DNA from: Lytechinus pictus
Lineage: Eukaryota
Assembly: GCF_037042905.1 (NCBI RefSeq)
Contig: NC_087251.1
Span: 6,326,001 to 6,390,000, forward strand
Length of the DNA: 64,000 nucleotides
Direction of reading: 5' to 3'
Part shown: piece after piece, positions 2,408 to 54,115 of the stretch
Position numbering within the stretch: position 1 is the first letter of the stretch
Layout: the number at the start of each line of letters is the position of its first letter
Translations under genes and position numbers: made by a program
The notes under the pieces: generated by a model
Database searches by the model: none
What the model saw: the letters and a program-made list of their open reading frames with translations, nothing else
Told to the model about the DNA's origin: nothing

Positions 2408-2458
<51 letters not shown>

Positions 2459-16334: not shown

Positions 16335-16517
16335 GATTACTCATAATTCCCATTCCTTTTTTAAAGCGTATCAACATTTTATGATTAAGTGTTGTGACAC
16401 TTAGAAAATAATAATTTACTCTTATAAATTTCAATTATGGAAAGCATGCAGTTCCATAAATTGTTGTCTTGAATATGTATGCCAAAAACACAGAGGAGGA
16501 CCGATTATGGCATTGAC

Positions 16518-17476
16518 TTTTTGTCTCACCTGCATAGCAGAGTGAGACTATAGGCGCCGCTTTTCCGACGGCGGCGGCGACGGCGGCGTCAACACCAAAT
16601 CTTAACCTGAGGTTAAGTTTTTGAAATGACAGCATAACTTAGAAAGTATATGGACCTAGTTCATGAAACTTGGCCATAAGGTTAATCAAGTATTACTGAA
16701 CATCCTGCCTGAGTTTCATGTCACATGACCAAGGTCAAAGGTCATTTAGGGTCAATGAACTTAGACCATGTTGGGGGAATCAACATCAAAATCTTAACCT
16801 AAGGTTAAGTTTTTGAAATGTCATCATAACTTAGAAAATATATGGACCTAGTTCATGAAACTTATACATAAGGTTAATCAAGTATCAATGAACATCCTGC
16901 TTGAGTTTCACATCACATGACCAAGGTCAAAGGTCATTTAGGGTCAAAGACCTTTGGCCGAATTGGGGGTATCTGTTGAATTACCATCATAACTTTGAAA
17001 GTTTATGGATCTGATTCATGAAACTTGGACATAATAGTAATCAAGTATTACTGAACATCCTGTGCAAGTTTCAGGTCACATGATCAAGGTCAAAGGTCAT
17101 TTAGGGTCAATGATCTTTGGCCAAATTGGGGTATTTGTTGAATTACAGCCATAAATTTGAAAGTGTGTTGGTCTAGTTCATAAAACTTGGACATAATAGT
17201 AATCAAGTATCACTGAACATCCTGTGCAAGTTTCAGGTCACATGATCAAGGTCAAAGGTCATGTTAAGGTCAAAGAACTTTGGCCACGTTGGGGGTATTT
17301 GTTGAATTGCCATCATATCTCTATAAGTGTATTGGTCTAGTTCATAAAACGTGGAAATAAGAGTAACCAAGTATCACTGAACATCTTGTGCGAGTTATAG
17401 TAGTTTTCAAAATCAGCACTGCTGCTATATTGAATCGCGTGATGCAGGTGAGACGGCCAGAGGCATTCCACTTGTT
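16518..17476 (+). mobile_element. HINE-like element with 4+ tandem units of ~163 bp, just downstream of the SCYL1 stop
   Basis: Subterminal IR GTCTCACCTGCAT (16523) / ATGCAGGTGAGAC (17442); (CGG)n tract; DR1 cores at 16732, 16924, 17087, 17249; ends CCACTTGTT; same family as 39210 and 52593. Confidence 0.82.
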
Positions 17477-22343: not shown

Positions 22344-22435
22344 TCAAGTGTCTTTCAGGTCAGCGATCTCTTTGGTTAAAGCTTTGACAGTTTCTTGAAG
22401 GGATGACTCTCTTTGTTTGAGTGCTGCAAAAACAT
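22344..22435 (-). CDS. Small helical gene, exon 3
   Basis: ttaaacag|AT..TGA; heptad-like VFAALKQRESSLQETVKALTKEIADLKDT. Confidence 0.72.
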
Positions 22436-24226
22436 CTGTTTAATGAAGAGAAAATATTGATTACTAATTTTGAAATGAATTGAAAGTTGGCAGATGGTGA
22501 ATTGTATCCAGAAAATCCATGATGTAATTATTGTAGTTTAGTACAAGAGATAATAATAATAAATTAATAACGGCAATTTTACCCAGGGTAGCCACTTCAG
22601 TTCCGAAAACTGTTCTCCCAGCGGGCCCTGCGATTACCCGGCTAAGCTAGGCTACCGATTCAGGTGCACACAGATTTTTGAGGAATTATTTCCTGCCGGT
22701 ACCCATTTACCTCACCTGGGTTGAGTGCAGCACAGTGTGGATAAATTTCTTGCTGAAGGAAAACACACCACGGCTAGGATTCGAACCCACGACCCTCGGT
22801 TTGAAAGGCGAGTCAGAACCACTAGACCATGATGTGCCCACGGTCACCCCCTCCCCCCCCCCCCCCTTCATCACTTTGGAGGAAAAAAAAGAGAATTGAA
22901 GAGAAGTTTTTACAAAAACATAAAGCAAGACTTTCATTTGAAAATCCAATTACCAGGTAAGATGGTAGACAAACCAAAAATGTCTACCATTCACCAATAC
23001 CATCAGCTGTTACAACTAAATTCATGCTGTACATTTTAACATCACAAGTTTTGATGATTAATCATGTCCTTGACAATATACTTCACTGAAGTAAATAAAC
23101 TACAACAGCATTGGTGTATGATCTTTGTGCAACTTTACTTTACAACATACAAATGACTCAAACTAATATGCCAGTGCTTCTCCTAATTTTAATTGAATTG
23201 GGTGTAACTCTTCTCACCTTCAAAGCATTCTGAAGAAGTATTCAGTTCTGTGCATATTGATATTGCATCTTCTATAGGTGACTGGATCCGTTCTTTGCCT
23301 GTTCCTTCATCAACCTTCAACTGAGTTGACCATTTTCTTCTCAAGAGTGCATTTTCTACCTCCTGTAAAATGATGAATGATCAAATTTCCATTTACTTGC
23401 CACACCACAATTTTGTCATAAGTAACAGAGCTACATCATTCATGATTCAAGCCCCAAATAAAGTATTCGAGGTTTCAACATGACACTAAAATCAACTGGA
23501 ATTTACTCAAAATTATATCCTGTCTATAACATATTTCACATCTAAATACATGTGTTGTAAACATTTTCTCATCAGATTTTGTACTAGCAAATTAAAAAGA
23601 TATTTTTCAAATCTGCAAGACAAAGCTCCGCTAGACATGCAGTCTTCTTGGGAGGTTAGTGATACTGCCCTGGCCTGGGACTTTGGACTGTGTTAACTTT
23701 AGATTCCCGGAGCGGAGCTGTGGCGTGGAAACATGTCATGGCATCAACTCGGCTGCCAGAAAATGTGAACATACCGCTAAAAAAAACTAAACGAACCACT
23801 CAAAATATGCAAGAACACTTGGTTGGGGCCAACTCACGCTTTGAGTTTGACTATTAGTATTTGTGCACATGCCCAACAGCACGATCTAGCGCCCATGCTG
23901 GCCAGTGAGTAACCCAGGGAGCTCCGGCCCGCGCAGCCGCTGCGCGGGCGGGAGTTCCCTGGGTTAGCCAGTGAGTAGCTACCTTGCTTGGGCCCTTTTA
24001 GCGCGGGCGCGGCGCGGGAGATGCTCGAGTTTTAACACAAAACATAACACAGTTTTATACGTGTGGGGCAAAGCATTTTCACCTGTGATAAATTGACGAT
24101 GCTTTCACCAAGGACTTTAACATTTGTTCCTGATATATTCAACTGACAACGGAGGATACCATCTTCTTCATTCTCTTCACCGATATGACATTGTGAACTA
24201 GCGTCTTGATCGGAATTTATCGCCAT
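22344..24226 (-). CDS. 126-aa small helical/coiled-coil protein, 3 exons (24226-24083, 23362-23218, 22435-22344); weak TEX12-like resemblance
   Basis: ATG in aaaATGG context; CAG|gtgaaa, ttacag|GAG, G|gtgaga, aaacag|AT; phases 0 and 1 are compatible; 381 nt. Protein: MAINSDQDASSQCHIGEENEEDGILRCQLNISGTNVKVLGESIVNLSQEVENALLRRKWSTQLKVDEGTGKERIQSPIEDAISICTELNTSSECFEDVFAALKQRESSLQETVKALTKEIADLKDT*. Confidence 0.75.
22547..22841 (-). mobile_element. tRNA-derived SINE with (TAT)n tail
   Basis: On the - strand: A box TGGTCTAGTGG (22829-22819), B box GGTTCGAATCC (22787-22777), ~200-bp body including GTAAATGGGTACC, and a TTATTATTA tail. Confidence 0.85.
23218..23362 (-). CDS. Small helical gene, exon 2
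   Basis: ttttacag|GAG..G|gtgaga; open frame EVENALLRRKW..ECFE. Confidence 0.75.
23910..23966. mobile_element. 57-bp fully palindromic micro-element with a 9-bp target-site duplication
   Basis: gccagtgag|TAACCCAGGGAGCTCCGGCCCGCGCAG-CCG-CTGCGCGGGCGGGAGTTCCCTGGGTTA|gccagtgag; 25 of 27 stem positions are Watson-Crick. Confidence 0.85.
24083..24226 (-). CDS. Small helical gene, exon 1
   Basis: ATG at 24226; donor CAG|GTGAAA; lies within ORF 24032-24247. Confidence 0.72.
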
Positions 24227-27200
24227 TTTCCAAAACCAAAATCGCAAATCACCTGCGCAGCAGAATCCTTTCTTTTTGCTAGTCTTTATTCAAGAATTGC
24301 TGTTTTAAAGGAATATAAGTTCACCCAGAAGATTTTTTTTGGACATACCAGAAAAAAATAGTGAAACGTACTGGTGAAGGAAAGCTAGACGGACTTCTAA
24401 CTGATACTATGACGCTATTCAACTGACTCCAACAAAAGGGCACAGACGTATATAACCCAGCCTTTTTTTAATGCATAATCAGGCAATATATGATCCTCTT
24501 TTACATACCATACACATCCCTCTGAGTAAGAATTAGTAAAGTCAAATGGAGGATTTCTTGCTTTCCCTAGGGAGATTAAAAAAAAATCAAGGAAGTAAAA
24601 ATTGAACTGCAGGAAATCTGCACTACGAACAAATAGACAAGACTTGAAGTTACATGCAGTTTAAGTCCATGCACCATAGTCCATAGAGATATACTAAAAA
24701 CGCATTCACCCATAACGTTGATCATATGAATCAATAGACAGAAATTAAACAAGCACAACGCTGGAAATTTCGGGTGTAAATTTCGCTTATTTGTCACAAA
24801 GCAATGCACAGTGATAATATGCAAATGAGAGAGTCGATGATGTCCCTGCATGACCTCACTCACTGCTATTTCTAAACTTTTCTAAGATTTCACAAATATG
24901 ACCAACCTGACGGAACAAAAAAATTGTTAAAACAATGGCAATTCCACGTGCAGGGAGGTATCAAAATTTGTTTCAAATGGCAATGAGGAAAAAAATATAC
25001 ATATTTCATACCGTGAAATACAAAAGAAACTAGTGAAAGTTGCAAACAGATGGCCGGCATTGGGATGCTTCCCCACCAAAAAAAAAAGACAAAAGGTAGG
25101 AGATAATCAGTTCTGAATGTTGGATTTTTGTAATGAAAATTGTAAAAAAATGTTGCTGGCTCGCTTCGCTCGCACTCTTTTTTTAATTATAAATTTTGCC
25201 TCATATATCTCAATTAAGCCCCCTCAAAGTTTTCGGTTCATTATGCCACTGGTGAGTGGGTGATGTCATCAGTCCCCTCATCAGTGCATTACCAACCAGG
25301 ATGTGCATAAACTCTTTGATGACATCAGATTTTGATTACATTTTCATAATTGTTATGCTTGCTGGATTTTTCTTTTTATTCAAATCAACTTTTTATCGGA
25401 GTAGACTTGTCCTGGGGGGACGTCTACCCCAACAGCAGTTGATTTGAATGATTAAAACTAGGAAATACCCCTACCCCAGGCGCGGATCCAAGATTTAGTG
25501 GGGAGGGGGGCCCAAATTTGACCTGATTTTTGGCGCCCATGTGTACTTTTCGAAAAATGGCGCCCCCTCCCTCCCGGCCAGGCTAACTTAAATTTAACTT
25601 AAATGCCTTAAATGTATTTTGAGTTATCTTATTACATAATCACATTAAAAAAAAAGGCAATTAAAGACCATTTTTTTAATGTGTTCTTGAAAAAAAATCC
25701 ATGAATATATAATGTAATATCAATGGGAGCGCGAAGCGCGAGCGATTTTTGGGGGTCTCAATTTGGTTTAACTTCTCACCAGAGTAGGCCCTACTAGAAT
25801 ATTGTGTGAAAGGGAGCTGTAGTTTCTTTACTAGTTGTTTAGAATAGCCTTCAATAATATAAATGATAACCTCTTGGGAATAATGCAATCTCGAAGCAAT
25901 CGACTCAATCTCCTCATCAGTGACGAAGCTGTGATTTATTCAGCAGGGTTGCACGGGGGGGGGGGGGGGGCTTGTTGAACTTTTGTAGAGGGCACCAAGA
26001 TAAAAAAATAAAAATAAAATGGGGGGGGGGGTAAAAGTTAAAGAAATTCCGAAATTTTATTCTTAAAAACACATCGAGGTATCTCACAAGGCCTAAATAA
26101 ATAATGATAACGCGAAGCGCTATATATTTGACATAATATTTGGAAAATAACATTATATTTCACCATAATCCCTTGTTTTTCTCTCTTTTTTTCTTGGTCG
26201 TGATTTTTTTTTTTTTTTTGGGGGGGGGGGCAAAACACCCATGTCCTAACAGTCATTTCCTAACTTAACTTTATAAACAACATTAATGTGCAATAATCTC
26301 ATAAGCCCTATGCGAGACAAAAAAAATTATTAAATTTCATGTATTTTGACCTGAAAATTGAACATTCTGGGCAATGTTTGTGAACCTGAACAAGATGCGT
26401 ATGTAACTATAGATAATTACTACGAGCGCAAAGCGCGAGCAGAAATTTTTAATGTGCGTTCTGGCCTGGTCGAAAAGGGACCTGTTAAGGAAGTTTTGAA
26501 TTAGCCATTAAGACGATTCATATTTCAACGATTAAATAATGCGAGCGCGAAGCGCGAGCTGAAATTTTTTTATATTCCAACCTAAAAAATTGGATTTTAA
26601 ACCCCCAACGGGACACTCGATTCATGTTTTGTCACTCATGAAAAATGATGGGTATTTTTTTGTATCTTCCTACATTAATAATGCGAGCGCAAAGCGCGAG
26701 CAGAAAATTTTTGATATTCTGATCTGAAACTGGATAATTTTAGCACGTTTTTAATAAGATCAAGATGCGTATCTCAATAAACATGCGTGCACGTGTTTTA
26801 GAGTTAGACAGAATCTGGGCATTCTGAATACATTTCGTTTTTCATCATGAAAATCAATAATGCGAGCGCGGATCGCGAGCTGGAAATAATATTTGAAATT
26901 CCGTTATGAAATGGGTCAATTTAAGCAATATTTAAAGCACTGTGTACATAGGGGAATTGTGAAGTGGATGTGGAAAGCACTTAATAAATGATGCGAGCGA
27001 AGCGCGAGCTCATATTTTATTATTATTTTAAACTAGGATCGAGACATTTTAGGCCTAAGGACATTTTGTCATAATATAAGAATGATGCCTATCTTCTATT
27101 CCTCTTCCTAAAACTTGTCGATATATTTTTCTGAAAAAGGGACGATTTAGTTATGAATTCATAAAAAATCTATTTCATATTTATTAATCTAATAAGCCTA

Positions 27201-27381
27201 ATGAGTGCGTGAAATTTGTTGACAGTGCATGAGGCCTGAAAATTGGATATTTTATATATTTTTTAATCATGAACAGCATTCATGGGTTGATACATTTATA
27301 GCAAATAATGCGAGCGCAAATCGCGATCCGAAATTTTTTAATGGGGGGAATTCAAGTAGTTTGTTATAGAATATATAGGTA

Positions 27382-29100
27382 CAGTGGCGTACCGTGGGTC
27401 ACGACATGGGGGGCACCACCACAAATTTGGTGTCACTTAGGGAGCGCGCTCAGTTGCCAGGTATGCTGACCGAATAGAGAAATTTTAAAGACATGCAATG
27501 CCATTAAACGGATAAGTATCTCACTGATTAAATAATGCGAGCGCGAAGCGCGAGCTGAAAATTTTTGATATTCAGACCTAAAAGAGACATTATAAGCAAA
27601 TTTTTTGTAATCGTGATACGTACCTGTCTCGCTAAACAAACAATGCGAGCGCGAAGCGCGAGCTGAAATTTTTGTATATATTGACCCCAAACAGGGACAT
27701 TTTAAGGACTATATTTTAGGTATCCATTTTAGAGTATAAATATCTCAGCATAGTCATCTAATGATAGTGGCATCCTTTGCTGATTTTGTTAGAATTACAT
27801 CTAAACATATGAAGCACTTTTTGTAGTCATTGTAATCATGATTATCATACGCATCTCACTAATCAAATACTGCGAGCGCGAAGCGCGAGCTGAACATTTA
27901 TGAAATTCAGACCTGAAAAGGGGCATTCTAAGGCTTGTTTGTAGGAATTCACTAAGTCCTTACGTATTTCACTAACCAAATGATGCGAGCGCGAAGCGCG
28001 AGCTAAAATTTTGATATTCAGATAAAAAAAATTGACATTTTAAGGAATGATTTTAGGAATTCATGAAGAGCAAACATCTCACCGATCAACTAATGCGAAC
28101 GTTAGCACGAACAGGAAATGTTTTATATTAAGACCTTAAAATTGGGCAATCACTTTAAAGGGGAATGAAACCTTTGGAATAAGTAGGCTTGTGTCGAAAC
28201 AGAAAAATCAAAGAATAAGAACAAAGAAAGTTTGAGAAAAATCGGATAAATAATAAGAAAGTTATGAGCATTTGAATATTGCAATCACTAGTGCTATGGA
28301 GATCCTCCTATTGGCAATGCGACAAGGATGTGTGATGTCACATGTGAACAACTTTCCCTTTGATGGTCTATAGAATACCCTCAAAATGTCTGTTTCTGCT
28401 TTTTCTTGTGGTGATACAAATTTTTAACCATGATGTATTCTTTAAAAATCTGTATTACATGCCCTCCTATAAAAAGAACACATGATCTACTGATAGATGT
28501 GATAAAAGCGGCAATTTAAGTGAAATATATACTAAAGAAATGGGCAGAGTTGTTCACAAGTGACATCACACATCTTTGTCGCATTGCTAATTTGAGGATC
28601 TCCATAGCATTAGTGATCACAATATTCAAATGCTCATAACTTTCTCATTATTTGTCTGATTTTTCTCAAACTTTCGTTAATCTGTTTCTTTGATTTTTCT
28701 ATTTTCACACAAGCTATCTTGTTCCAAAGTTTTCATTCTCCTTTAAGTAATCATGAAAAAAAAAGCAAATGTCACTACATAAAACAATAATAACTCGAAT
28801 TGCGAGGAAATATATTTGGTGTATATTGATTTGAAAACGAGAGGTTTTAGTACAACAGGATTATACATCTCGTTAAACAGTCTATGCGAGCACCAGGAAC
28901 AATGAAGACATAGGCCCTGAGCAAACTGTTTCATAAAGTCAAGAAAAAAAATGCTTCTTATGTATCATAATTATGATATAATATAACATTATAATAAACA
29001 ATAATTTTTCTTTCCCCATTATGTTTCTCTTCTATGTTTCTCAGCCGATTGGGGGGGGGGGGGCACGTGCCCACCATGCCCCCTGGTAGTTACGCCACTG
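27382..29100. mobile_element. 1719-bp hAT-like non-autonomous element nested in 25477-32530
   Basis: tataggta|CAGTGGCGTA ... TACGCCACTG|tataggta: 10-bp TIR and exact 8-bp TSD. Confidence 0.88.
28159..28742. mobile_element. TTAA-target MITE (Kolobok/T2-like) nested in 27382-29100
   Basis: ttaa|AGGGGAATGAAACCTTTGGAA ... TTCCAAAGTTTTCATTCTCCT|ttaa; long inverted arms. Confidence 0.85.
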
Positions 29101-29289
29101 TATAGGTATACAGAACTCACCAATCAAAATGCGAGCGCACAGCGCTAGCTCATAGGCCTTCATTTTTGACAATCGAGACACCTGAAAAGGAATATTTTGA
29201 GAATCTTATATGAAATACACAAAGATAATAGGTAGGCCTACAACATTTTAAAGTTTCGCTTAATTTCACAAACCAGTTATAATCACATC

Positions 29290-29732
29290 CTTGTCGGTAT
29301 GAGGAGACTGATGACATCACTCACTCACTACTTCATTTTGTATTTTAGTATATGAAATATTCCATTTTTCTCCGTTGTCGTGTGAAACAATTATTAATTC
29401 CTCCCTGAACATGAGCAATTAGCATTGTTTAATACTAAATGGTTCAATCAAGTTGGTCCATATTGTAAAATCTGTAAAAAATGAAATATTGTATAATTCT
29501 AACAATAAAAAACAAAGGAATTAGTGAGTGAGGGACATCATCGACTGTCTCATTTGCATGTCACTGAGTTGTGCATATCACTGTTTTTTTTTAAATAAGC
29601 AAAAAATTTTTTTAGAAATGTCATAATTTTTTCATTTTACATCCGGTTTTGATGAAATTTTCAGCATAATGCTTGTTAGATTTTTCTTTATTTATTCAAA
29701 TCAACATTTTTTTGGGGTGGATGGACTTGTCC
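29290..29732. mobile_element. Truncated copy of the 35909-36673 TTAA-MITE family
   Basis: Right end GGGGTGGATGGACTTGTCCT|ttaa; body similar to 35909-36673; left end missing. Confidence 0.6.
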
Positions 29733-30229
29733 TTTAAGAAATGAATGCGAGCGCGAAGCGCTAGTTGAAAACTTTTTTAATGATGAAATGAAAAGGACAT
29801 TTTCAGTTGTTGGATTAGAATATAAAATATTTTCAGCTTGTGCTTCTCGTTCGCATAAAAAAACTGTGAGGTCGGGATGCGTATATAACTAAACAGTGAT
29901 GCGAGCGCGAAGCGCGAGCAATTTTTTTTTATATACTGACTTAAGAAGGACTCTTTTAAGGTATAATTCCTATTTATTTAAACATTTTAAGGACTTATGT
30001 ACGTGTGATCGATGGAGATGATACACACCTCACTAATCAAATATTGCGAACGCGTAGCGCCAGCTGAATTTGATATTAACCCCTTTTCTGACCCTGAACA
30101 GGATAGCTATCTCGCCAAACAAACTTCAAACTCGAGCACATTGATTTTTTTCTATTATCGTAAAAACGGGATATTTTAAATCAGCCGCATTAATGTAACC
30201 TTTTTGGGCAGGAAATAAATTTCACTTTA

Positions 30230-31595
30230 AACAGGCAATACGAGCAATGTTGCGCCCCCGGTCGAACATGAATTTGCATGGAGCCCCCTAAGTTCAAGGT
30301 CAATTTGGCGCCCTCGGTTGAACATGAATTTGGCGCCATGTGAAATATCAATTTGCCCTCGGCCACCTTCTGAAACATGTATATGTCGCCTTATGGTCAA
30401 ACATCAAATTAGCGCTCCCCTAGTTTGAACATCAATTCGGCGCTCCCCTAGTTCGAACATCAATTTGGCGCCCCTCCCAGTTCAAACATCAATTTGGCGC
30501 CCACATCTAGTTCGAAAATTAATTCGCCCCGTCCCCCTTGTTCAAACATCAATTCGGCGCCCCATAGTTCGAACGTCATTTTGGCGCCGCCTAGTTCTAA
30601 CATCAATTTGGCGCCCCCCTCGTTCGAACATCAATTTGGCGCCCCAAGTTCGAATAGCAATTCGGCGCCCCCTAGTTCGAACATCAATTTGGCGCCCCTA
30701 GTTCGAACATTCAATCGGCGCCCCCCGATGTCGAACATATAAGTTTTGCGCCCCTACGTCAAACATCAATTCGGCGCATCCCCCCTACGTCGAACATCTA
30801 TTTGGCCTCCCTAGGTCGAACATAAATTTGGCATCCCTTCGAACTCAATTTGGCTTCCCTAGTTCGAATATCAATTCGGCGCCCCCTAGTTCAAACATCA
30901 ATTCGGCGCCCCCCCCCTAGTTCGAGTATCAATTCGGCGCCCCCCTAGTTTGAGTATCAGTTTGGCGCCCCCTAGCTCGAACATCGATTCGCCTCCCCCC
31001 CCCCCTAGTTCGAATATCAATTTGGCGCCCCCAGTTCGAACATCATTTTAACATCCCTTCGAACATCATTTTGGCGCCCTCCTAGATCGAATATCAATTC
31101 GGCGCCCCTACATATAGGTCCAACATCAATTTGGCGCCCCATAGGTCGAGTATCAATTTGGCGCCCCCTAGTTCCAACATCAATTCTGAGCCCCCCTAGT
31201 TTGAGTATCAATTTGGCGCCCCCTAGCTCGAACATCGATTTCCCCCCCCCCCTAGTTCGAATATCAATTTGGCGCCTCCAGTTCGAACATCATTTTAACA
31301 TCCCTTCGAACATCATTTTGGCGCCCTCCTAGATCGAATATCAATTCGGCGCCCCTACATATAGGTCCAACATCAATTTGGCGCCCCATAGGTCGAGTAT
31401 CAATTTGGCGCCCCCTAGTTCCAACATCAATTCTGAGCCCCCCTAGTTTGAGTATCAATTTGGCGCCCCCCTAGTTCGAACATCGATTCGGCCCCCTCCC
31501 CCCTTGTTCGAGTATCAATCTGGCGCCCCCAGTTCGAACATCATTTTAACATCCCTTCGAACATCATTTCGGCGCCCTTTTGGTTCGAACATCAT
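30230..31595 (+). repeat. Minisatellite of ~30-bp monomers (TAGTTCGAACATCAATTTGGCGCCCCC) with a ~247-251-bp higher-order repeat
   Basis: Roughly 40 monomers with variable C-runs; marker CATCATTTTAACATCCC recurs at 31041, 31288 and 31539. Confidence 0.92.
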
Positions 31596-32477
31596 TTTCT
31601 TTCCTCCTCTTCCTCTTTTTTTCTTCTCGTCCTTCCCCTCTTTCTTTCCCCTTTTCTTTCCCCCCCCCCCGTTCTCTCTCTTTTTTCTTCTCTTCTTTCT
31701 TCCCTCTTCCTCTTTCTCCTTTTTTCTCCTTTTCCTTTTCCCCTCTCTTTTCCCCCTTCTTCTTTCCCCTCTTCCTCTTTTTTCTCCCCCCTCCCCCTGC
31801 CTTTTCTTCTCTTCCTTCCCCCTCTTCTTCTTTTTTTTTTCTTTCTTTCCCCTCTTCTCCTTTTTTTCTTTTATTTCCCCTCTTCTTTTTTCTTCTTTTC
31901 TTTCCCCTCTCTTTTTTTTCCTCTTCTTTCCTCCCTCTTCCTCTCTCTCCTTTTCTTTTCCTCTCTTGTCTTCCCCCTCTCCCTCCCTTTTCTTCTCTTC
32001 CTCTTTTTTTCTCCTTTTCTTTCCTCTTTTTCCTCTCTCTCTTTTTCTTCTCTTCCTCCCCCCCTTCCCCTCTCTCTCTTTTTTCTCCTTTCCTTTTCCC
32101 TCTCTTTTTCCTTCTCTTTCTTTCCCCTTTTCCTCTCCCTTTTCCTTCCCTTCCTTCCCACTCTTCCCTTTTTCTTCTTTTCTTTCCCCCTTTCCTCTCT
32201 CTTTTTTCTCCTCTTCCTCCTTCCCCTCTTCCTCTCTCTTTTCCCCTCTTCTTTTCCCCTTTCTCTCTCTTCTCTTCTTTCGATCCTCCTTCTTCCTCTC
32301 TCTTTTTGTCTCCTTTTCCTTTCCCCTCTCCCTCTCTCGATCTTTCCTCTTTTCTTCCCCCCCCCCTCTTTCTCTCTCTCTTTTCTTCCCTTCTCCCCCC
32401 TCTTCCTTTCTTCTTTTTCTTCTTTTCTTTCCCCTCTTCCCCTCTTTTTTCTCTTTCTTTCCCTCTCTTTTTTTTTT
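31596..32477 (+). repeat. ~880-bp almost pure polypyrimidine tract
   Basis: Almost only C and T on the + strand, aperiodic. Confidence 0.95.
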
Positions 32478-32769
32478 AGCCTAAGGGGGGGGGGCCAAGG
32501 CCCCCTCGGCCCCCCATGGATCCGCGCCTGCCCTACCCCTTCTCCTCCGAGCTCCACCCCCCCCCCCCCTCCTCCTCACAGCGCGCGCTAGGTACCGTAA
32601 ATCCTGCACTTTTTTGTCTTCAATTGAGTAGAGCACCAACTAGCTGCTCTGTGTCAATTTTCTTTCTTATCATTATCATGATGTAAAAGTAAACGTAAAT
32701 AACCATCAAGGCTCATGAAATAGAATGCACAAAAATAGGCAAGTCTTTTAACAAGGCTATAAAAACTTT

Positions 32770-33000
32770 TAACCAATCAAAATGACGCGATGTGACTGCA
32801 CGCAACCGGTGCATATGATCTATGACCCTGGCGCAACAGGCCCGCCGCACCGCCTCGCGCCGCGCCTGGCCTAGCCTGCGGTGCCTGGAGCTGTCGGCGC
32901 GGCTGGCCGCCTGTGTGCGGCGTTAAGTTACGCTCCCTAGCGCCTAGCCTGCGCCCCTTCCCGCCCATTCTCGCTTGCCTCGTTTGAAAGTCATATCGCG
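32770..33000 (+). promoter_or_regulatory. GC/CpG-rich proximal promoter and 5' region of the bHLH-HMG gene
   Basis: CpG-dense patch in an AT-rich background directly before ATG 33001; TTCCCGC at 32958-32964 and TTTGAA at 32983-32988. Confidence 0.55.
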
Positions 33001-33230
33001 ATGCGGAAAATAAAGTCAAGAAGATCAAAATCTACTACCAAGACATCCCCGAAATCTAGTTTAAATGCCAATGGACCTCGCTTGAGGAGTACGAAACGCA
33101 TTGAAAATGTGAAAACAGTGGTGAAAAAGAAAGTGACGAAGTCGAAGAGGAAGAGTCAATCCGTACGGGGACCATCAGTGTCACCCGACGATCATTTGGA
33201 GAAACGGGAGATGCATCGAATCCATGAGAG
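33001..33230 (+). CDS. MEIOSIN: bHLH-HMG gene exon 1 (basic N-terminus and bHLH basic region)
   Basis: ATG 33001; ..HRIHE AG|gttggt (phase 2). Confidence 0.8.
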
Positions 33231-36200: not shown

Positions 36201-39200
36201 AACAATACTAATTCCACATGTTCAGGAAAGAATTAATCGTATCACTTGACAATGAGGACAAAATTAGAATATTACATATGGGCAATTCCATAAAATTATC
36301 AACCTTTTAGTACATCCGACCCACATTTTTCTCAAGTTTTACTTCACTTCATAAACTGACCAAGCCATGGTCCTTTGATAACATTACAGACTGTCAAAGA
36401 ACAAGAAATCAGAGACAGAAAATTTCATGAAGGTCCCACACATAGGGGGTCGGACGTACATATTTTATGGAATTGTCCATATAATAAAAAAAAAAAGAAA
36501 TAGTGAGTGGATGACATCATGTCTCCTCATTTGCATAACCCTTTTGTGAAATTAAGGAAAATCTAAAATATAACTCTCATTTTACACCCGATTTCGATTA
36601 AATTTTCAGTGTTATGCTTGTTGGATTTTCTCTTTTTATTCTAATCAACTTTTGGTTGGGGTGGACTTGTCCTTTAAGTCAGTCTGATAATAATACTACA
36701 AAAAATAACAATTATCATTACCATAAATAATCTTTTACATTGACCTTAAGTAGAGGTAAAACGCTGTTTGGATAATTTTCTTTTCATTTAGTTAGATCTA
36801 CTTCAATCTAATTATAAACTTACCATGTCTATATAATCCATTGATATCATTATGCAGGCGGAGACATTATAGTCTAAACCAGGCCATCAGGAAAATAATC
36901 AACAAGCTTCCTTCTTGTGAGGCAACTGAACCAGAAACAAAGGTAAATTTGAGAATACAATGGTCTGTAATGTTTATAATGCAAATATAATTATCAATAA
37001 TGACAATAAACATCATTTCCAGTAAGCCTAAATGTGTAAGGCATCCAGTCAGACAGACAAAAAGAATGAAAGAAAGAAAGAAAGACAGACAGAGAGAGAG
37101 AGGGAGACAGAAGAAAAGAAGAAAGAACCGATAATCAAATATCTCTTATTCCAATGTACACTAAAACAATTATGACTTCGGTTTGTTTACTTGCTCTTGA
37201 AAGAACTTGGAGAATACATGTATCCACCCATTGCATAAATATATTGGATTTGTTAATGAGACAATTGATTGCAATAGTGATAATAATAAATTGTTTCTAC
37301 TGCGGGAGTAAAAAAAATATTTGCACTAAAAAAAAATTGTCAATTCAATAAATATAAATCACAGCAAAGAATCCTACATGATTATCCAAGTGTGAATATA
37401 TACCATGTGCCAATGGTATCAAATTATTTTGGGGGAAAGAGGTAGTAGGGACATGTTCATGACAAGGAATTTCATTATAATTGCCAAATCTTTAGTTGCA
37501 AAGTTTTTTACTCACTCGGTATGATGAATGATAGAGTCACTATCTGCCTTCAATACGTAAGTGACGCTGTATAGCATATGATTGTTTATCAAAAGGTTCT
37601 GAATTTCTGATAGAGATATGGTAGACATATCAAATTTATATATTCAGTATGAAATATTGTTGAATAATATGAATGGGTAATATTTATTATCAATTTTTAA
37701 CAATATGAAAACATTGCTGCATTGTTTTTTTAAATGTACATATGCAGCCTACACATACCCCCAAAATAAATTTATGATTATATTAAAGGTAATTTGATAC
37801 AAAATAGTAAAAAAACACTAAAAATTAAAAATGAATTCTCTTGATTGACTGTTGTCTTTCTCTTCCTCCTGAATTCAATTTTACAGCACTATGTGTTGAG
37901 GAAGACAAGTGATTATATTCAGTTCTTAGAAGAAAAGATAAGTGCCCTATGCTTGGATTTGGATATAGAGCAAACAAATAATTGTGGAGATCTTTCATTC
38001 AGTTCTTCATTATATACTTTGATGGGTAAGTAGAAGTAGAAAAGACATGCAAGATCCTGGTGTCACCCAGTTCAAGTATTACACTGTACATATAGCTTCT
38101 CAGTTTAAACTTCAATGAGTATTTACTTTTTTAAACGTCTTTATCAAGTACTGGTACTTTTTAACATAAATTACAAGAAACAAAATTAAAGTTTAGCTTC
38201 TTATTTGACATTTAATAACAGAATAATTGTAACAATTAAAGGAAACCAAAACCCAAGAAGAGAAGCAATCTTATTGGAAAGAGTAAAGTGCGAAGAGCAA
38301 TCTAAAACTTGTTTTATAAAAATCGGTTATAAAATAATTGAGTTATGGAAGTTTGAAAACTCTTGTTGAACTTTCTATGGGGATCCTCAAATTGGCAAAC
38401 GTGCTTCAAAATGGCTGATTTTGTGGACAACTCTCCATTTGTTTTGTACACAAATTTTCTGATTTTCCTCATTATCTTTCAAATAGCATCTTGCCTCTTT
38501 CTGAGCACAACATATGTCATGGGAAAATATAATTCACACCACATATGTCAAGTATAGGAGGAGATAATGTGAAATATGTAAAATAAAGGGGAAACTCCAA
38601 CAAATTGTATACAAAGCAAATGGACAGTTGTCCACAAAATCAGCCATTTTGAAGCACGTTTGCCAATTTGAGGATCCCCATTGTAAGTAGAACAAGACTT
38701 TTTAAATGCCCATAACTTGCTCATTTCATAACCGATTTTGATGAAACTTGTTTTAAATTGTTCCTCTCATTTTACTCTTTCCAATAAGATTGCTTCCCTT
38801 CTTGGGTTTTGGTTTCCTTTAATAGCATTCAGTATTAACTCTTGGCATCAGTTTTCATTAGACATTTGACATCTAGAGTGTATGTACCCTTAACATGTGT
38901 ACCTTTTCAACCCAAGTAGAATCAAGTTTATTGACCAATAGGTGCTATGTAATTGCAGAGTATTTTTTCTCTCCTCACATGGTGAAGTCATTATTTCACT
39001 ACCTTTATTCTGATATTAGCCTTTACAAGTATGGCGATGCCTGCAATTATAGTCAAAAGTACACTTTAATTAGCTGAGCCCCAAAGATTAATTTATATTA
39101 CAGGGATTTATACTGCTTTTTACAAAGTCTGGTGTCTGAAAACTTTAATCTGCTTATGATGAAATCTTAAGAAAGACTGACTTTTTCAGCATTATTAGAC

Positions 39201-42200
39201 TAGGCATCATTTTTGTCTCACCTGCATAGCAGAGTGAGACTAGAGGCGCCGCTTTTCCGACGACGGCGGCGTCAACACCAAATCTTAACCGAAGGTTAAG
39301 TTTTTGAAATGACAGCATAACTTAGAAAGTATATGGACCTAGTTCATGAAACTTGACCATAAAATTAATCAAGTATTACTGAATATCCTGCCAGAGTTTC
39401 ATGTCACATGACCAAGATCAAAGGTCATTTAGGGTCAATGAACTTAGACCATGTTGGGGGAATCAACATCAAAATCTTAACCTAAGGTTAAGTTTTTGAA
39501 ATGTCATCATAACTTAGAAAATATATGGACCTAGTTCATGAAACTTGGACATAAGGTTAATCAAGTATTACTGAACATCCTGCATGAGTTTCCCGTCACA
39601 TGACCAAGGTCAAAGGTCATTTAGGGTCAATGAACTTTGGCAAAATCTGTTGAATTACCATCATAACTTTGAAAGTTTATGGATCTGATTCATGAAACTT
39701 GGACATAATAGTAATCAAGTATCACTAAACATCCTGTGCAAGTTTCAGGTCACATGATTAAGGTCAATGGTCATTTAGGGTCAATGAACTTTGGCCAAAT
39801 TTGGGGTATTTGTTGAATTACCATCATAACTTTGAAAGTATATTGGTCTAGTTCATAAAACTTGGACATAAGAGTAATCAAGTATCACTGAACATCCTGT
39901 GTGCATCTCAGGCCACATGACCAAGGTCAAAGGTTAATGAACTTTGGCCGTAATGGGGGTATCTGTTGAATTACCATCATAACTTTGAAAGTTTATGGAT
40001 CTGACTCATGAAACTTGGACATAAGAGTAATCAAGTATCACTGAACATCCTGTGCCAGTTTCAGGCCACATGACCAAGGTCAAAGGTCAATGGATATTGG
40101 CCATGTTGGGGGTATTTGTTGAATTACCATCATAACTCTAAGTATATTGGTCTAGTTCATAAAACTTGGACATAAGAGTTGTCAAGTATCACTGAACATC
40201 TCATGCGAGTTTCAGGTCACATGACCAAAGTCAAAGGTCATTTAAGGTAATTGAACTTTGGCCATTTTAGGGGTAATTATTAGATTGCTGTCATAACTTT
40301 CAAAGTTTATAGATATAGTGTATAAAATGTGGATATAGGGGTAATCAAGTATCACTGACAAGTTTTAGGTCACATGATCAAGGTCCAATGTCAATGAACG
40401 TAGTATTGTATCATTATATGAATGGTGTTTTTTGTGAATAATTATTTAAATGGTGTTTTTCAAAGTCAGCACTGTTGCTATATTGAATCGCGTGATGCAG
40501 GTGAGACCGCCAGAGGCATTCCACTTGTTTGTAGATACAGTATAAGCAGTTGATGTAAAATAATCATATCAAGGAAAAGTATTTTTCGACAGAGTGTACT
40601 TTTCTATCTGATTAAATTAAATAGTACCCAGTGTAATAAACCACATGAGCTAATGACCATCTTAAAAAAAATCCCATTGACTCTATGGTGATAAAACTTC
40701 TGCATTTTTCTGATTATCAGTTTCATGAAATGTACATTTGCTACACTCCTGAATTTGAGCTATCAATTTCATCGGTTTTCAGTGGCAATAGAATCAGCTT
40801 GAAAATTAATTCATTAATTTTACCTTCCTACCTTCTTTTCCAAAATATGTAGCATTTATTTCAAAAAATTTCATGTAGAGAAAAATAGATAAGTTATTTG
40901 CTTTCAGACAATTCCATGACATTTGCTCCAGTGACATTGCTCTGCTGTAATTTCTACACGCTGATAGAATAACTAACTTCAGCCCCAGATTAAGGACTAT
41001 TCCCTATCCTGAACCTAACATAAAATCATATTGCAACCCTAAGCCTAATGCTACAGCTTAGACCAAATAAACTCCAGAGCAGTTGTTGATGGAGCTAATG
41101 TCGTGTCACCTAAAAGTATCTTCTGTTTGACTCCACACAGTATGCAATCTTAGTCAGCGTTAGTTCAGAAAGACAACTGCTTCCCGATTGACTTAGGAGT
41201 GCATGATTGTTCATCATCTCAACTTCACTAACTTTTTATTCTCTTTCAAATTACAGATGGAATTCAGAAAGAGATTCCTGCTGATACACCAATTTCTTTG
41301 GAATCCATACAAGATTTGTTAACCAGGCTTGACTGTCAAGTTGACAAGTCTTTGACAAGTTTGACAACCAAGAAGAATTCAACCAAGGGTAAACCGAGAT
41401 CCATGAAAGCTACACGTAAGAAGAAAATAAAGCTCATCCATCAAGATGGCCCCAAAGTGACAGAAATTGGCGATGAGTATCTCCAAGAAAATGACATCAA
41501 AGAAGATGATGAAGAGTCCCTCAGTACAGTAAACACTCAGGATAGTCTGCTAGCAAGCAGTTCCATGAGTGGAATGATGTGCTCTGAGAGTTCAATTGAA
41601 ACAGATGTTTCTCAATCAAACCAGATGAACTCTTCTGTCAGCTCTACCTGGGGCACAGGGTCCCTTGATGATGGTTTTAGCAGCAGCAAGACCACTGATC
41701 AGGAATCTTCACAGGGAAGCACTAGTTCCATCTCTAGCCATGATAGGCCACAAAGGGGAGATTCTCTGGCAGATCTCATTAGAAGTGACACAGGAGTGAA
41801 ATATATCCCAACTCTCTCTGAGGTCAATCAAAAGAGCAAACACATTAAATGGAGTCAGAAGACATCTTTGCAACAAGTGGTTCTCCAAGTTCCCACATTC
41901 TCACCTAACCAGCTATCTATTCCTACCAACAGGACCAAGGACAAGCAAGGACCAATTTCATTCATTTGCCACGGAGATGGCAATGAGGTGTACAATCAGG
42001 CTGATTCAACCAATTTCTTGCCACTAAAGAAAAGCAGTTGCATGTCATCTGATAACATTGCTCATACTCCAACTGTTCTCTTTCAACCAAGTTCATGTAG
42101 TCAGTATGGTCACACCCAGCAGAACCCTGTCCCCATGATTTCTCCAATAAAACCTCTTTCAGACAGCACTGTCCCTGTGTCGGCCCAACATAATATCCTC

Positions 42201-45200
42201 AACAGAAACCTTGTCCCTACTGCTGATCCTCACCCAACCATCGGATATATTAACTGTACATTGAGCAATTGCTTAGATGACAAACTCACTGGTCCAAACC
42301 TTGGCATGTCCTGCACCAGTGTCCATCCATTTGAGGTGTATCACAAACAGTCCTCACTGTTTCAACCCTTGAAGCAAACTGTTGAAATTATCTTAGATGT
42401 TGGAGATGATCCATTGGTGATGAAGTCCTTTCTTGGAGAGAAGATTTTTTCTAAGAGGTCTGGGATAGATGGTTTCGAATTATTCATAAAGGTCAATATC
42501 AAGAGATTCCAAGAGTAAGTATTTGAAAATATAATCAAAGTATTAGAAATAGATACAGATAATTCAATTTGTACGAATTGACTGATAAATTGAATAAATA
42601 CAAAGTACTGTAGATTCCAATGTTCATATCTTCAGTAGATCAATACATCTGGTCAATTGGATGATGCATACTAGATTGAAAATAAAAGATGGAATGAAAA
42701 TACCTGTATGGATCACAATCTTGCAGTCAGGAAAACTATTTAAACATTCTTTAAGTATTCGAAATATTTGTATTTTGATTCATTGTATACATGTAAATCA
42801 ACCTAAAAAATGCAATATAGCCAATTTGAAAGCAAAATAGTCAGCTGGTAAGCAATTAAAATGTATAAAACCTGCAACGTACTTGCTAGATTTGAGTCAT
42901 GTGTAGCAGAGATCTCCAAATGGATGGGGCAGAACTACTTGAAAATCAACCAGGCGAAGTCTGAATTCATTTTCTTTGGCTCTTCCCAACAGATCAAAAA
43001 GGTCATCATTCCTAACCTAAAAATTGGTGATGTACATGTTGAGCCTGTTTCTAAAGTTCGCTCGCTAGGTTTGACACTTGATAGTACTATGTCTATGGAA
43101 CCACAAATCTCTAGCTGCATCAGATCATCATTTTATCACATTAGGCAGATTCGTCGGATCCGGGATTACCTGAATCCCCATGCAACGAAGCAGGCAGTTC
43201 ATGCTCTTGTCACATCACGTTTGGATATGTACAACAGTACTTTGGTTGGACTGCCTGATACTCAAATAAAACGACTACAGAAGGTCCAGAATTCTGCCGC
43301 ACGACTTGTAAAGCGTTCAAAGTTGTCGGATCATATCACCCCAGTTCTTAAGGAATTACATTGGCTGCCTGTTAGGCAAAGACTTGCATATAAAGTTCTT
43401 TCCTTGGTCTTTAAACTGAAAACCAACCAGACACCAGTGTACCTATCAGATCTTCTGGAGTTGAAGAGATCGTGTAGACCCGGTCTTCGTTCAGGGAATG
43501 TTCACCAGCTCCAACAAGTTAGAGTGAAAAGGTCCTGGGGTGACAGATCTTTTTCCGTTGCTGGTCCCCGTTTGTGGAATTCAATCCCATCGGACATTAA
43601 GTCGTGCCAGTCAAGAGAGCTATTCCACAGCAAATTGAAGACTTACCTCATGAGGGAAGCATTTCCTTAACTGTTGTGTGATAAGGCCATTTTTTATTTT
43701 TTGACTACCAACTTAACTGATTGTGTATTTTTTCTTCTCAGTTTGTTCATTTTTATGTATTTATTGATTTCTGTTTTATATAAGTAGTTAATTGTGCGCC
43801 TTGAGTGTCATCGACAGATATGTGCGCTATACAAATCTTTAATTATTATTATTATTATTAAGGTATTATTCTGCAACTGCTACTCATATCTTTTAAACAA
43901 TGTATACTGGTAATCGTTTTGACTTCCAATATGGTCTTTACCGTTCTCCTTTTTAACAAACTGCTGCATATATATTTCATTTCATCATAGTGGTTGGCCT
44001 GCACTGACAAGTAAAGAAATCAACAGACTCATTGGACAAGCATGGAATGAAATACCTGACCACTACAAACAGCTCTATGGGTAAGACAGGAATTAACAAA
44101 CATAGAAAAATTATCACATTCATATGCATGTTTATGAAAGAATGCTGCTCTTGCTTTTATTGATAATGTCTCAGTTTTCCCCCAAACATAGATATTCTGA
44201 AAGTAAATCTTCATACGCTTTAGATAGATCTTCTCATTTTGCATTTTTGAATGTGGTACAAGGAAAAAAGAAACTGACCCACACATTTTCCATAATGTGA
44301 AAAGTTTGCACTGTAAAGTCTTGCGCACACCTTTTGAGACCAAATTTGAATCTAACTTGAATCTTGTTGGACCACAGGAATTTGTCCCCCTCCGGCAAAA
44401 TTGACAAGAAGTGACAACACACGAGTAGTATGAGGTCTGAAAAATGTATTTGACTTGGGTGATTATTCAATTTATAGAAGTTTGACTTTTAATATGCGGA
44501 TTTGAACTTTTAGAAGCCATTATACTTCACATATATTCTGATGACTTTTCCATGTATTTGTCTTCCTTTTTCTTGTATCCTAGAAAAAGAGCTTGCGCAT
44601 GGAACCTTCGGCACAAGAAGAGAACAAAGTCAAAGATTACCTTGTAAGTTTTGCATAATGGAACAATTCTTTAAGATCTTTGTTTAATCAAATAAATCAG
44701 GTCAGTGAGCTCAACTCCTTAAGGGATAGGAAAGCAAACCTATCAAACGTATGCAGAAAGGAGGATAATTGACTAAAAAATCATCATGAATTTGCATTTT
44801 ACTTTAGTTTTTTGTAACCATGGTGTTGATAAGATTTATATTTGATTTATTAATCCAACAATACACACTTATTGGTTGTTTTTATATTCATTCTCTTTTA
44901 TAATTCAACTTTTTTTTTTATTGCATTTTGTATTATGAAGATCAAGTTGACAGGATTTCTCATAGAATCATTCTACTTTATAATTGATATTGTTTCATTA
45001 CTTGCATAATCAAAGTTTTAGCAATGACATGTGACATGTAAGCATAGGTCATATGCAAAGCTTGTCTCTGTTAGAAATTTCATATTGAATACAAGTCAAT
45101 GAAAACTGAACATCAACAAGAAAAAAAAACTCTTTAGAAGCAGAATTGTAAATTTTATCTGAAGGTCTCAAAAGATTGTTCTGATCTATGCACATTGTAC

Positions 45201-53774: not shown

Positions 53775-54115
53775 TGTCTTTACACCAGACTGAGTGCATT
53801 ACATTATAATATTGATTCATCAATTAGCAAGTGTTCATATGATTGCCAAAAGGAGAATAAAAATTGTTTTGATTTATACTACTCATACCAATATTCTTGT
53901 GATTTGATTGGTTTAAAGCCATTAAATATTTGATCCATTTTGTGCTGCATGCAAATTTTATTTTCCATTGCGCGGCGACCGTGCATTTGTTATTTTTCCA
54001 TTGCAAAGTTGAGCATTTTGTATGTGTGTTTGCGTGGATCAAAGTAACAAGGCTGACTGTGCCTGTGCACACTCATATTCATAAATCAAAGGGCGAAAAC
54101 AATTAACTGCTTTAA

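What the first reader, a model, noticed from the sequence alone, without database searches (positions are those of the whole stretch)
24083..33230. Head-to-head pair of putative meiotic genes, split by a 7-kb transposon insertion
Seen: the two ATGs (24226 on -, 33001 on +) diverge and lie 8.8 kb apart. Of that, 7054 bp plus an 8-bp TSD is one insertion. Removing it leaves ~1.7 kb, part of which is further MITE debris (~24760-25400). Inference: an ancestral bidirectional germline promoter linking a meiosis-entry transcription factor to a possible synaptonemal-complex gene. The insertion may be polymorphic and may uncouple their regulation.
Basis: partly seen in the sequence, partly recalled or inferred. 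Interest (0 to 1): 0.72.

Follow-up and report, generated by a model that had tools for sequence, protein, structure and literature searches.

The report
MEIOSIN-like gene pair with nested transposon
In a sea urchin, a likely counterpart of the vertebrate gene that switches germ cells into meiosis sits back to back with a small unnamed gene, and a nest of jumping-DNA pieces has landed between them, probably without much effect because each gene seems to keep its own start region.

Summary
The anatomy is exact: divergent ATGs at 24226 and 33001, and a 7054-bp insertion with a perfect 8-bp target duplication and 14-bp terminal repeats. The genome is Lytechinus pictus. The plus gene (621 aa, bHLH plus C-terminal HMG box) is probably the MEIOSIN/BHMG1 orthologue; orthology was not tested by a tree. 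The minus gene (126 aa, helical) belongs to an unnamed family found in echinoderms and amphioxus; nothing here ties it to the synaptonemal complex. Accession order and shared contigs put the two genes side by side in four echinoid species, so the pairing looks old; orientation elsewhere is untested. A single shared promoter is not shown: each gene has its own CpG-retaining 5' zone, and a spliced contig carries the minus gene's first exon unspliced to at least 24454. A strong splice acceptor at 24566 leaves a more distant first exon possible. The insertion is a transposase-free nest of common repeats. Polymorphism and uncoupling could not be tested. The scan has noted the bHLH-HMG gene only in this window and no look-alike of the partner elsewhere. 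Verdict: new member of a known kind; the gene pair matters more than the insertion.

The parts
22344..22435 (-). Minus gene (LOC129265087) coding exon 3 with stop codon; 3' UTR continues to at least 21641
   Evidence: model equals P0006; X1 record 4 covers 21641-22435
23218..23362 (-). Minus gene coding exon 2
   Evidence: found the L. variegatus orthologue
23838..23870 (-). Alternative first coding exon of RefSeq isoform X2
24083..24454 (-). Minus gene exon 1: coding part 24083-24226, 5' UTR unspliced to at least 24454; CpG-retaining zone 23751-24454
   Evidence: X1 record 4; CpG o/e 0.78-1.12
24509..24566 (-). Alternative exon of RefSeq isoform X3 (coding 24509-24517), preceded by a strong acceptor-like site at 24566; may be an internal exon
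24670..25456 (.). Older MITE debris, with a 221-bp piece (25031-25251) absent from other copies
   Evidence: (loose ends at 25413, joint 25030-25252, high summed depth)
25469..25476 (+). Left copy of the 8-bp target duplication CCCTACCC
25477..32530 (.). 7054-bp non-autonomous DNA transposon with 14-bp terminal inverted repeats; no transposase found
   Evidence: (0 of 30 reading frames hit Pfam)
27382..29100 (.). Nested 1719-bp element with its own 8-bp duplication TATAGGTA and 10-bp terminal repeats
28155..28746 (.). Foldback MITE inside the nested element (204-bp arms, 87% complementary)
29241..29737 (.). Further MITE copy, same family as the debris at 24670-25456 (ends approximate)
30279..31590 (.). 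27-bp tandem array (41.4 copies over 30400-31547) with a higher-order 247-bp repeat
31590..32480 (.). Pyrimidine-rich low-complexity tract
32531..32538 (+). Right copy of the target duplication
32760..33000 (+). GC- and CpG-rich proximal promoter and 5' UTR region of the plus gene: CCAAT match at 32773, CRE half-site match at 32783, GC-box matches at 32841 and 32960
   Evidence: motif patterns recalled, matches are no proof of function; GC 0.62, CpG o/e 1.2
33001..33230 (+). Plus gene (LOC129265086, MEIOSIN-like) exon 1, ends inside the basic region
36858..36942 (+). Plus gene exon 2 (helix 1 and loop of the bHLH)
37887..38025 (+). Plus gene exon 3 (helix 2 of the bHLH)
41257..42514 (+). Plus gene exon 4 (long serine-rich linker and first HMG helix)
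43991..44080 (+). Plus gene exon 5 (HMG box)
44584..44647 (+). Plus gene exon 6 with stop codon

Best explanation
An old head-to-head pair of genes, each with its own proximal start region, has been pushed apart by ordinary non-autonomous transposons. The plus gene is the sea-urchin MEIOSIN/BHMG1 orthologue, a bHLH + HMG transcription factor that probably switches on meiotic genes in germ cells (architecture shown; orthology and function inferred). It is driven from the CCAAT/GC-rich stretch at 32760-33000, wholly to the right of the insertion (motifs shown; function inferred). The minus gene encodes a 126-aa helical coiled-coil protein of an unnamed echinoderm-amphioxus family, most likely a subunit of a rod-like protein complex, and its main mRNA starts near 24.45-24.6 kb (exon extent shown; start inferred). 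A cut-and-paste transposase acting in trans placed the 7054-bp element in the spacer, leaving the 8-bp duplication (shown); smaller elements are nested in it (shown). Because both start regions stay intact, the insertion is probably close to neutral (inferred).
For: Gene models match RefSeq proteins exactly. HLH 25.2 bits against a cut-off of 20.7 and HMG_box E 0.0011 in P0001; 4 of 4 echinoid members hit both. Nearest Atlas clusters by features: a mollusc HMG+HLH cluster (0.84) and chordate 'meiosis initiator protein' (0.77) (leads only). One 1317-nt contig of run X1 lies on exon 3 and on 24082-24454 with a 144-letter gap that fits exon 2, and X1 depth is 0 at 24482-24662. CpG o/e is 0.78-1.12 over 23751-24454, 0.15 over 24455-24669 (1 CpG in 215 bases), 0.63 over 32539-32759 and 1.2 over 32760-33230, against 0.12-0.51 in gene bodies. 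Similar TIR + duplication elements occur elsewhere in the window, and both repeat blocks draw very high summed contig depth in the relative's DNA runs.
Against: A contig end is not a start site, so 24454 is only a lower bound. The X3 exon has a strong acceptor at 24566 of a kind found in only 49 of 637 bins, which suggests an upstream exon, and a donor-like site lies at 32851 on the minus strand (score 7.5, within the 5.8-10.6 range of 9 real donors). With both insertions removed the CCAAT box would lie about 470 bp from the contig end, close enough for shared elements. Atlas scores under 0.9 are leads, and the HMG match of P0001 is below the Pfam cut-off (19.7 against 25.4). No vertebrate MEIOSIN sequence was aligned. 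Neighbourhood in other species rests on accession numbers and contig lengths, not on coordinates.
Confidence: 0.55

Rival explanations
1. One bidirectional CCAAT/GC-box promoter at about 32.6-33.0 kb drives both genes. The minus gene has a short non-coding first exon there that splices to the acceptor at 24566, so the 7-kb element lies in its first intron and uncouples nothing.
For: Strong acceptor at 24566 (49 of 637 bins have one) and donor-like sites at 32851 and inside the duplication at 32537; three RefSeq isoforms with different 5' coding exons; the only CCAAT and GC-box matches lie on the plus side; old neighbourhood.
Against: The X1 contig runs unspliced to 24454 and no X1 contig covers 24482-24662; the minus gene has its own CpG-retaining zone ending at 24454; the donor matrix is a recalled approximation and several equal or better donor-like sites lie inside the repeats.
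Confidence: 0.2
2. One reading: a compact ancestral spacer of 0.5-0.7 kb held germline elements shared by both genes; the MITE and then the 7-kb element separated the minus gene from them, weakening co-regulation in carriers, and the insertion may still segregate.
For: Collapsed distances of 697 bp (contig end to plus ATG) and 470 bp (to the CCAAT match); perfect terminal repeats and duplication suggest a young insertion; two RefSeq versions of the minus protein differ by one residue, and X1 carries the other allele, so other haplotypes exist; old neighbourhood.
Against: No empty site was seen and no contig decided the question; nested layers may need time; both reading frames are intact, 93% and 96% identical to L. 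variegatus; the left part of the MITE is also on a contig of organism B (X10 record 12, to 24831), so the spacer was already enlarged there; nothing links the partner to meiosis.
Confidence: 0.15
3. The plus gene is a bHLH + HMG protein that is not the MEIOSIN orthologue or has no meiotic role in sea urchins, and the pairing is incidental local gene order.
For: No direct hit to a vertebrate sequence (one search found 3 proteins, all echinoid); identity to Diadema is only 37-38%; neighbours differ from the human ones (SCYL1-like here; SIX5/DMPK around human BHMG1, abstract of PMC4863877). No control was run for how often echinoid neighbours stay together.
Against: The bHLH-linker-HMG order matches mouse MEIOSIN (PMC13637641, section 5); the two nearest Atlas clusters are HMG+HLH clusters, one named meiosis initiator protein; oyster BHMG1 is described as a factor involved in meiosis (PMC8945556, passage).
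Confidence: 0.1

Closest known systems
Vertebrate MEIOSIN (BHMG1), Shimada et al. 2026, PMC13637641
   Same: N-terminal bHLH, long poorly conserved linker, C-terminal HMG box; similar length class (Atlas cluster 538 aa against 621 aa).
   Different: Echinoderm; that paper covers vertebrates only and says more distant species were not included. Partner STRA8, expression and function are untested here. Neighbouring genes differ from the human locus.
Oyster CgBHMG1 (Yue et al. 2021, Gene 790:145692; title seen in reference lists, one sentence in PMC8945556)
   Same: Invertebrate gene of the same name, studied in gonad and called a factor involved in meiosis; a mollusc HMG+HLH cluster is the top Atlas row (0.84).
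   Different: Not aligned here; no neighbour gene or promoter arrangement seen in what I read. It shows that an invertebrate BHMG1 is not new in itself.
Synaptonemal-complex central-element proteins SYCE2, TEX12, SYCE1, SYCE3
   Same: Small, almost wholly helical proteins with coiled-coil ends (model: helices 7-64, 77-90, 92-125).
   Different: No sequence or family match to the minus protein. PMC4132317 (passage) notes a SYCE2-like gene annotated for S. purpuratus, whereas the S. purpuratus orthologue of this gene is 'uncharacterized' LOC588384.
Non-autonomous hAT-type DNA transposons and MITEs with 8-bp target duplications (class features recalled)
   Same: 8-bp duplication, short terminal inverted repeats starting CAG, no transposase, subterminal repeats.
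   Different: 7 kb because of nested elements and tandem arrays; the host's fifth base does not fit the recalled YARNG end consensus (the nested element does), and no autonomous partner was found, so the superfamily is not assigned.
Bidirectional (head-to-head) promoters, starts under about 1 kb apart (definition recalled)
   Same: Divergent orientation; CpG-rich CCAAT/GC-box stretch; under 1 kb once both insertions are removed.
   Different: More than 8 kb apart now, about 1.3-1.5 kb without the 7-kb element alone; two separate CpG-retaining zones; start sites and co-expression not measured.

Membership tests
MEIOSIN/BHMG1 | N-terminal bHLH domain | tested here: met
   PF00010 25.2 bits, cut-off 20.7, residues 68-120; 4 of 4 members
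MEIOSIN/BHMG1 | C-terminal HMG box | tested here: met
   PF00505 in 4 of 4 members (best E 5.2e-05; P0001 19.7 bits, below the cut-off of 25.4), PF09011 in 2 of 4; profile hits to TFAM HMG boxes
MEIOSIN/BHMG1 | Orthology with vertebrate MEIOSIN by tree or reciprocal best hit | tested here: inconclusive
   No vertebrate sequence retrieved; Atlas feature score 0.77 to 'meiosis initiator protein' is a lead; the alignment figure in the supplement of PMC13637641 is not readable as text
MEIOSIN/BHMG1 | Expression in germ cells at meiotic entry; required for it | not testable with these tools
   No reads were laid on the plus gene; tissues of the runs are not given
STRA8 | Match to STRA8-type bHLH and HMG-like sequence | tested here: inconclusive
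   Only HLH, HMG_box, HMG_box_2 and HMG_WDHD1 matched the four members; no STRA8 cluster among the 3 Atlas feature rows shown
Synaptonemal-complex central element (SYCE1/2/3, TEX12) | Sequence similarity to a central-element family | tested here: inconclusive
   No family above cut-off in Pfam scans of the family members; PDB profile search gave only generic coiled coils. That these libraries hold the SC families is recalled, and they diverge fast.
Synaptonemal-complex central element (SYCE1/2/3, TEX12) | Small, mainly helical coiled-coil protein | tested here: met
   AlphaFold2 model, mean pLDDT 76.6, pTM 0.31; shared by many unrelated proteins
Synaptonemal-complex central element (SYCE1/2/3, TEX12) | Localises between synapsed chromosomes in prophase I | not testable with these tools
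   Needs antibody or tag
hAT-type non-autonomous transposon | 8-bp target duplication and short terminal inverted repeats | tested here: met
   8 of 8 and 14 of 14
hAT-type non-autonomous transposon | YARNG end consensus (recalled; also named in e1-624041) | tested here: not met
   Host begins CAGGC (4 of 5 fit); the nested element begins CAGTG (5 of 5)
hAT-type non-autonomous transposon | No transposase inside; autonomous partner with the same ends elsewhere | tested here: inconclusive
   0 of 30 frames of 45 aa or more in 25477-30400 hit Pfam; longer frames right of that are low-complexity; no genome held to seek a partner
Bidirectional promoter | Divergent starts under about 1 kb apart | tested here: inconclusive
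   From the contig end at 24454 to the plus ATG: 8546 now, 1484 without the element, 697 without the MITE too; true starts unknown, and a distant first exon is not excluded
Bidirectional promoter | One shared CpG-rich core | tested here: not met
   Two CpG-retaining zones separated by a CpG-poor stretch even in the collapsed state; small counts
Bidirectional promoter | Correlated expression of both genes | not testable with these tools
   No run was laid on both genes

The most novel reading that the evidence does not exclude
The pair has been kept head to head for the whole history of regular sea urchins because it is co-regulated in the germline, and the 126-aa neighbour is an unrecognised deuterostome meiotic protein (an axis, synaptonemal or MEIOSIN-partner subunit) with no detected vertebrate counterpart. 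Sea-urchin MEIOSIN, which keeps both bHLH and HMG domains, would then show that the two-domain switch predates vertebrates and may work with a partner other than STRA8.
Probability: 0.2. Interest if true: 0.72.

Novelty: new member of a known kind. Interest (0 to 1): 0.4.

Why it matters
Shimada et al. 2026 (PMC13637641, discussion passages) leave open whether bHLH-less MEIOSIN in hagfish is primitive or a loss, because they did not look beyond vertebrates. A bHLH + HMG MEIOSIN in four echinoids would favour loss and give a non-chordate model for testing meiotic entry. An oyster BHMG1 is already in print, which lowers the surprise. The unnamed neighbour is conserved from sea urchins to amphioxus and now has a concrete lead (position beside MEIOSIN) for a germline role. 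The insertion is ordinary for this genome; it would matter only if it segregates and changes expression, in which case it is a natural promoter-spacing experiment.

Tried and rejected
No whole genome was held, so copy number, empty sites and an autonomous partner could not be sought. Sequencing-run search on 22300-24700: 20 of 23 listed rows hold part of it (8 of organism A, share 0.20-0.28; 12 of organism B, 0.09-0.14); no RNA holder listed. Reads were laid on 20500-25900 only, so the right junction and the plus gene are not covered. There, raw RNA run X21 had depth 0 in the three coding-exon bins, but about 6 in 100 of the run was read and its tissue is unknown, so I draw nothing from it. 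Empty-site test: X10 record 13 starts at 25475, with only 2 flank bases, and no loose end at 25476 is among the rows shown (2131 not shown): undecided. Metagenome scan with the bHLH-HMG alignment: 349 pattern matches, 0 confirmed. Identity of the minus protein: Atlas rows were bacterial hypothetical proteins at chance-like scores; phmmer of PDB gave 3 designed coiled coils; profile search 27 weak hits, best E 0.0075 to a designed peptide; Foldseek 1 match at E 5.7; VIA-align best Z 6.1, none at 8 or more, no synaptonemal chain among the 50 rows shown, which does not exclude a shared fold. The best Pfam hit was ANG-1-like, E 0.0011, 19.6 bits against a cut-off of 28.5, in the S. purpuratus protein: treated as coiled-coil background. 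The representative search used one sequence, not a profile (5 hits), so relatives outside deuterostomes may be missed. MYB-like and TATA-like matches near 24400-24454 are too short to count. The resemblance to SYCE2 is rejected as unsupported rather than disproved. Literature: ten searches showed no paper on an echinoderm MEIOSIN or this gene pair; none of the five LOC ids occurs in the 20 listed of 35 papers. The sea-star ovary atlas (PMC13407887) names no meiosin, bhmg or stra8 in its text or in the supplements searched (4 of 15 files not searched, two cut; an unnamed LOC would be missed). Subscription papers, Yue et al. 2021 among them, could not be read. No complex prediction was run, as I do not claim binding.


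Full report
What was checked. The finding describes two divergent genes 8.8 kb apart with a 7054-bp insertion between them, and reads this as an ancestral bidirectional germline promoter joining a meiosis-entry factor to a synaptonemal-complex gene. I tested the coordinates, the identity of both genes, the conservation of the pair, the nature of the insertion and the promoter claim.

Observation. All numbers hold. The ATGs are at 24226 (minus) and 33001 (plus), 8774 bases apart; the element spans 25477-32530 between two copies of CCCTACCC, and 1712 bases remain without it. The terminal inverted repeat is perfect over 14 bases; such repeat-plus-duplication pairs occur 10 times in the window (7 of them inverted copies of one family, 3 single elements) against 0 in 18 and 1 in 2 of 20 shuffles. 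The MITE debris runs from about 24670 to 25456 and has sister copies at 29241-29737 and 35906-36677.

The organism and the genes. The large plus-strand exon matches LOC129265086 of Lytechinus pictus at 100%, and the minus gene is LOC129265087. Six exons give the 621-aa protein P0001 and three exons give the 126-aa protein P0006 exactly, with GT-AG introns in the plus gene. Both are annotated 'uncharacterized'.

Plus gene. P0001 has an HLH domain above the Pfam cut-off (residues 68-120) and an HMG box below it (558-614, E 0.0011). All 4 echinoid members hit both families, and the two domains are the best-conserved blocks of an alignment with 38% identity to Diadema. The nearest Atlas clusters by features are a mollusc HMG+HLH cluster (0.84) and the chordate 'meiosis initiator protein' cluster (0.77), leads by the tool's own bar. 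Mouse MEIOSIN has the same two domains (PMC13637641; I saw the outline, passages, section 5 in full and part 1 of 2 of the supplementary PDF, legends only). That paper covers vertebrates only. An oyster BHMG1 is called 'a factor involved in meiosis' in PMC8945556 (passage), citing Yue et al. 2021, of which I saw only the title in reference lists. I put orthology at about 0.85 (inference); no tree was built because no vertebrate sequence was retrieved (3 hits, all echinoid).

Minus gene. A search of 1.84 billion representatives found 5 proteins, from S. purpuratus, Diadema, the brittle star Amphiura, amphioxus and one unnamed source, none with a functional name. The model is a long helix, a loop, and two further helices. 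No family reached its Pfam cut-off in scans of the members, and the PDB profile search returned generic coiled coils. PMC4132317 (passages) notes a SYCE2-like gene annotated for S. purpuratus, whereas the orthologue of this gene there is uncharacterized. The synaptonemal label is therefore unsupported, though not excluded for such fast-evolving proteins.

Is the pair old? Gene ids are consecutive in L. pictus and L. variegatus. In D. antillarum the two proteins are five accession numbers apart and report the same longest contig of 885,660 bases; in D. setosum the accessions are 864 against 875 and 885 (two isoforms, step about 10) with the same 52,426,318-base contig. So the genes are neighbours in 4 of the 4 species where both were retrieved; for S. 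purpuratus, Amphiura and amphioxus only the minus gene was retrieved. Diadema and Lytechinus split roughly 200 million years ago or more (recalled). Orientation and spacing outside L. pictus were not seen, and no background rate of neighbour retention was measured.

The insertion. It is a nest: a 1719-bp element with its own 8-bp duplication (27382-29100), a foldback MITE inside that (28155-28746), another MITE (29241-29737), a 27-bp array of about 41 copies and a 0.9-kb pyrimidine tract. None of 30 reading frames of 45 aa or more in its left 4.9 kb hits Pfam. In two DNA runs of a close relative (organism B), summed contig depth is about 30-130 over unique DNA and 10,000-107,000 over the MITE ends and the element's left end; this marks common repeats but is no copy number. 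An element of like build lies at 45612-46424. Such insertions are background in this genome. Whether this one is polymorphic was not decided: no contig shown bridges or skips the left junction.

The promoter claim. A 1317-nt contig of run X1 lies on 21641-22435 and on 24082-24454, with 144 letters between that fit exon 2, as a spliced mRNA would; X1 depth is 0 at 24482-24662. So exon 1 reaches at least 24454 unspliced, though a contig end is not a start. CpG o/e is 0.78-1.12 over 23751-24454, falls to 0.15 over 24455-24669, and is 1.2 over 32760-33230, against 0.12-0.51 in gene bodies. In sea urchins gene bodies are methylated and 5' ends are not (recalled), so this suggests two separate start regions. 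The plus side holds the only CCAAT and GC-box matches, all right of the insertion. Against this: the X3 exon has a strong acceptor at 24566 (49 of 637 bins have one) and a donor-like site lies at 32851 on the minus strand, so a distant non-coding first exon is possible; in that case the insertion lies in an intron and uncouples nothing. With the element removed the contig end lies 1484 bases from the plus ATG, and 697 with the MITE removed too, so an ancestral compact spacer is plausible.

How it most likely works. The MEIOSIN-like factor is transcribed from its own CCAAT/GC-rich promoter and, by analogy with vertebrates, activates meiotic genes (inferred). The neighbour is transcribed the other way from about 24.5 kb and makes a small coiled-coil subunit (fold predicted, role unknown; a germline role is suggested only by position). 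A transposase in trans placed a non-autonomous element in the spacer, and smaller elements accumulated in it before or after. With both start regions intact the effect is probably small (0.55). Rivals: shared promoter with the insertion in intron 1 (0.2), shared elements split by the insertion (0.15), no meiotic role (0.1).

Novelty. Ten searches showed no paper on an echinoderm MEIOSIN or on this pair. A 2026 review of sea-urchin reproduction (PMC13666137, passages) and a sea-star ovary atlas (PMC13407887, passages and 11 of 15 supplements) do not name it; PMC7290932 and PMC11879061 mention MEIOSIN only for mammals (passages). Most subscription journals are not searched. The scan's own notes hold the bHLH-HMG reading only for this window and no look-alike of the partner. 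Verdict: a new member of a known kind, interest 0.40. The boldest reading left open, an unrecognised meiotic protein co-regulated with MEIOSIN across echinoids, has a probability of about 0.2.

Noticed in passing
window 728-16335 (+): Multi-exon SCYL1-like gene: kinase-like exon (PK_Tyr_Ser-Thr, E 0.005), HEAT repeat, match to yeast Cex1 (E 0.0025). It points towards the 3' end of the minus gene; X1 contigs tile 20500-21667, so one of the two 3' UTRs is long.
   Followed up: partly
window 5774-6571 (+): Tc1-like transposase remnant (HTH_Tnp_Tc3_2 and DDE_3 above cut-off) in an intron of the SCYL1-like gene.
   Followed up: partly
window 23899-24019: GC-rich 57-bp hairpin (23910-23966) between 9-bp direct repeats in intron 1 of the minus gene, next to the X2 alternative exon; in both organism B runs this 121-bp stretch is replaced by 77 other letters.
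   Followed up: partly
window 25469-25476 and 32531-32538 (-): Read on the minus strand, the target duplication contains a donor-like site (score 8.2); probably chance, but it bears on the distant-first-exon model.
   Followed up: partly
window 16570-17460, 39210-40530, 52600-53770: Three copies (two direct, one inverted) of an element built of 150-190-bp tandem units, about 91-96% alike at the ends.
   Followed up: no
window 42852-43670 (+): 272-aa open frame in intron 4 of the plus gene that reads like the C-terminal part of a LINE protein (recalled resemblance); no Pfam hit at E 0.01.
   Followed up: partly
window 38235-38823 and 45612-46424: Two further foldback MITEs; the second has 12-bp perfect ends and an 8-bp TA-repeat duplication.
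   Followed up: partly
window 54113-56796: 2.7-kb element with 19-bp terminal inverted repeats and an internal 225-bp tandem array.
   Followed up: no
window 57680-59520 (-): Exons that read like the C-terminal part of a beta-1,3-glycosyltransferase (recalled resemblance); two frames scanned gave no Pfam hit at E 0.01.
   Followed up: partly
window 22565-22850: Very common repeat in intron 2 of the minus gene, with thousands of reads in RNA run X21 coming from other copies.
   Followed up: no
P0011 (Diadema antillarum): The basic-region segment appears twice at the N-terminus of this model: a tandem exon duplication or an assembly artefact.
   Followed up: no
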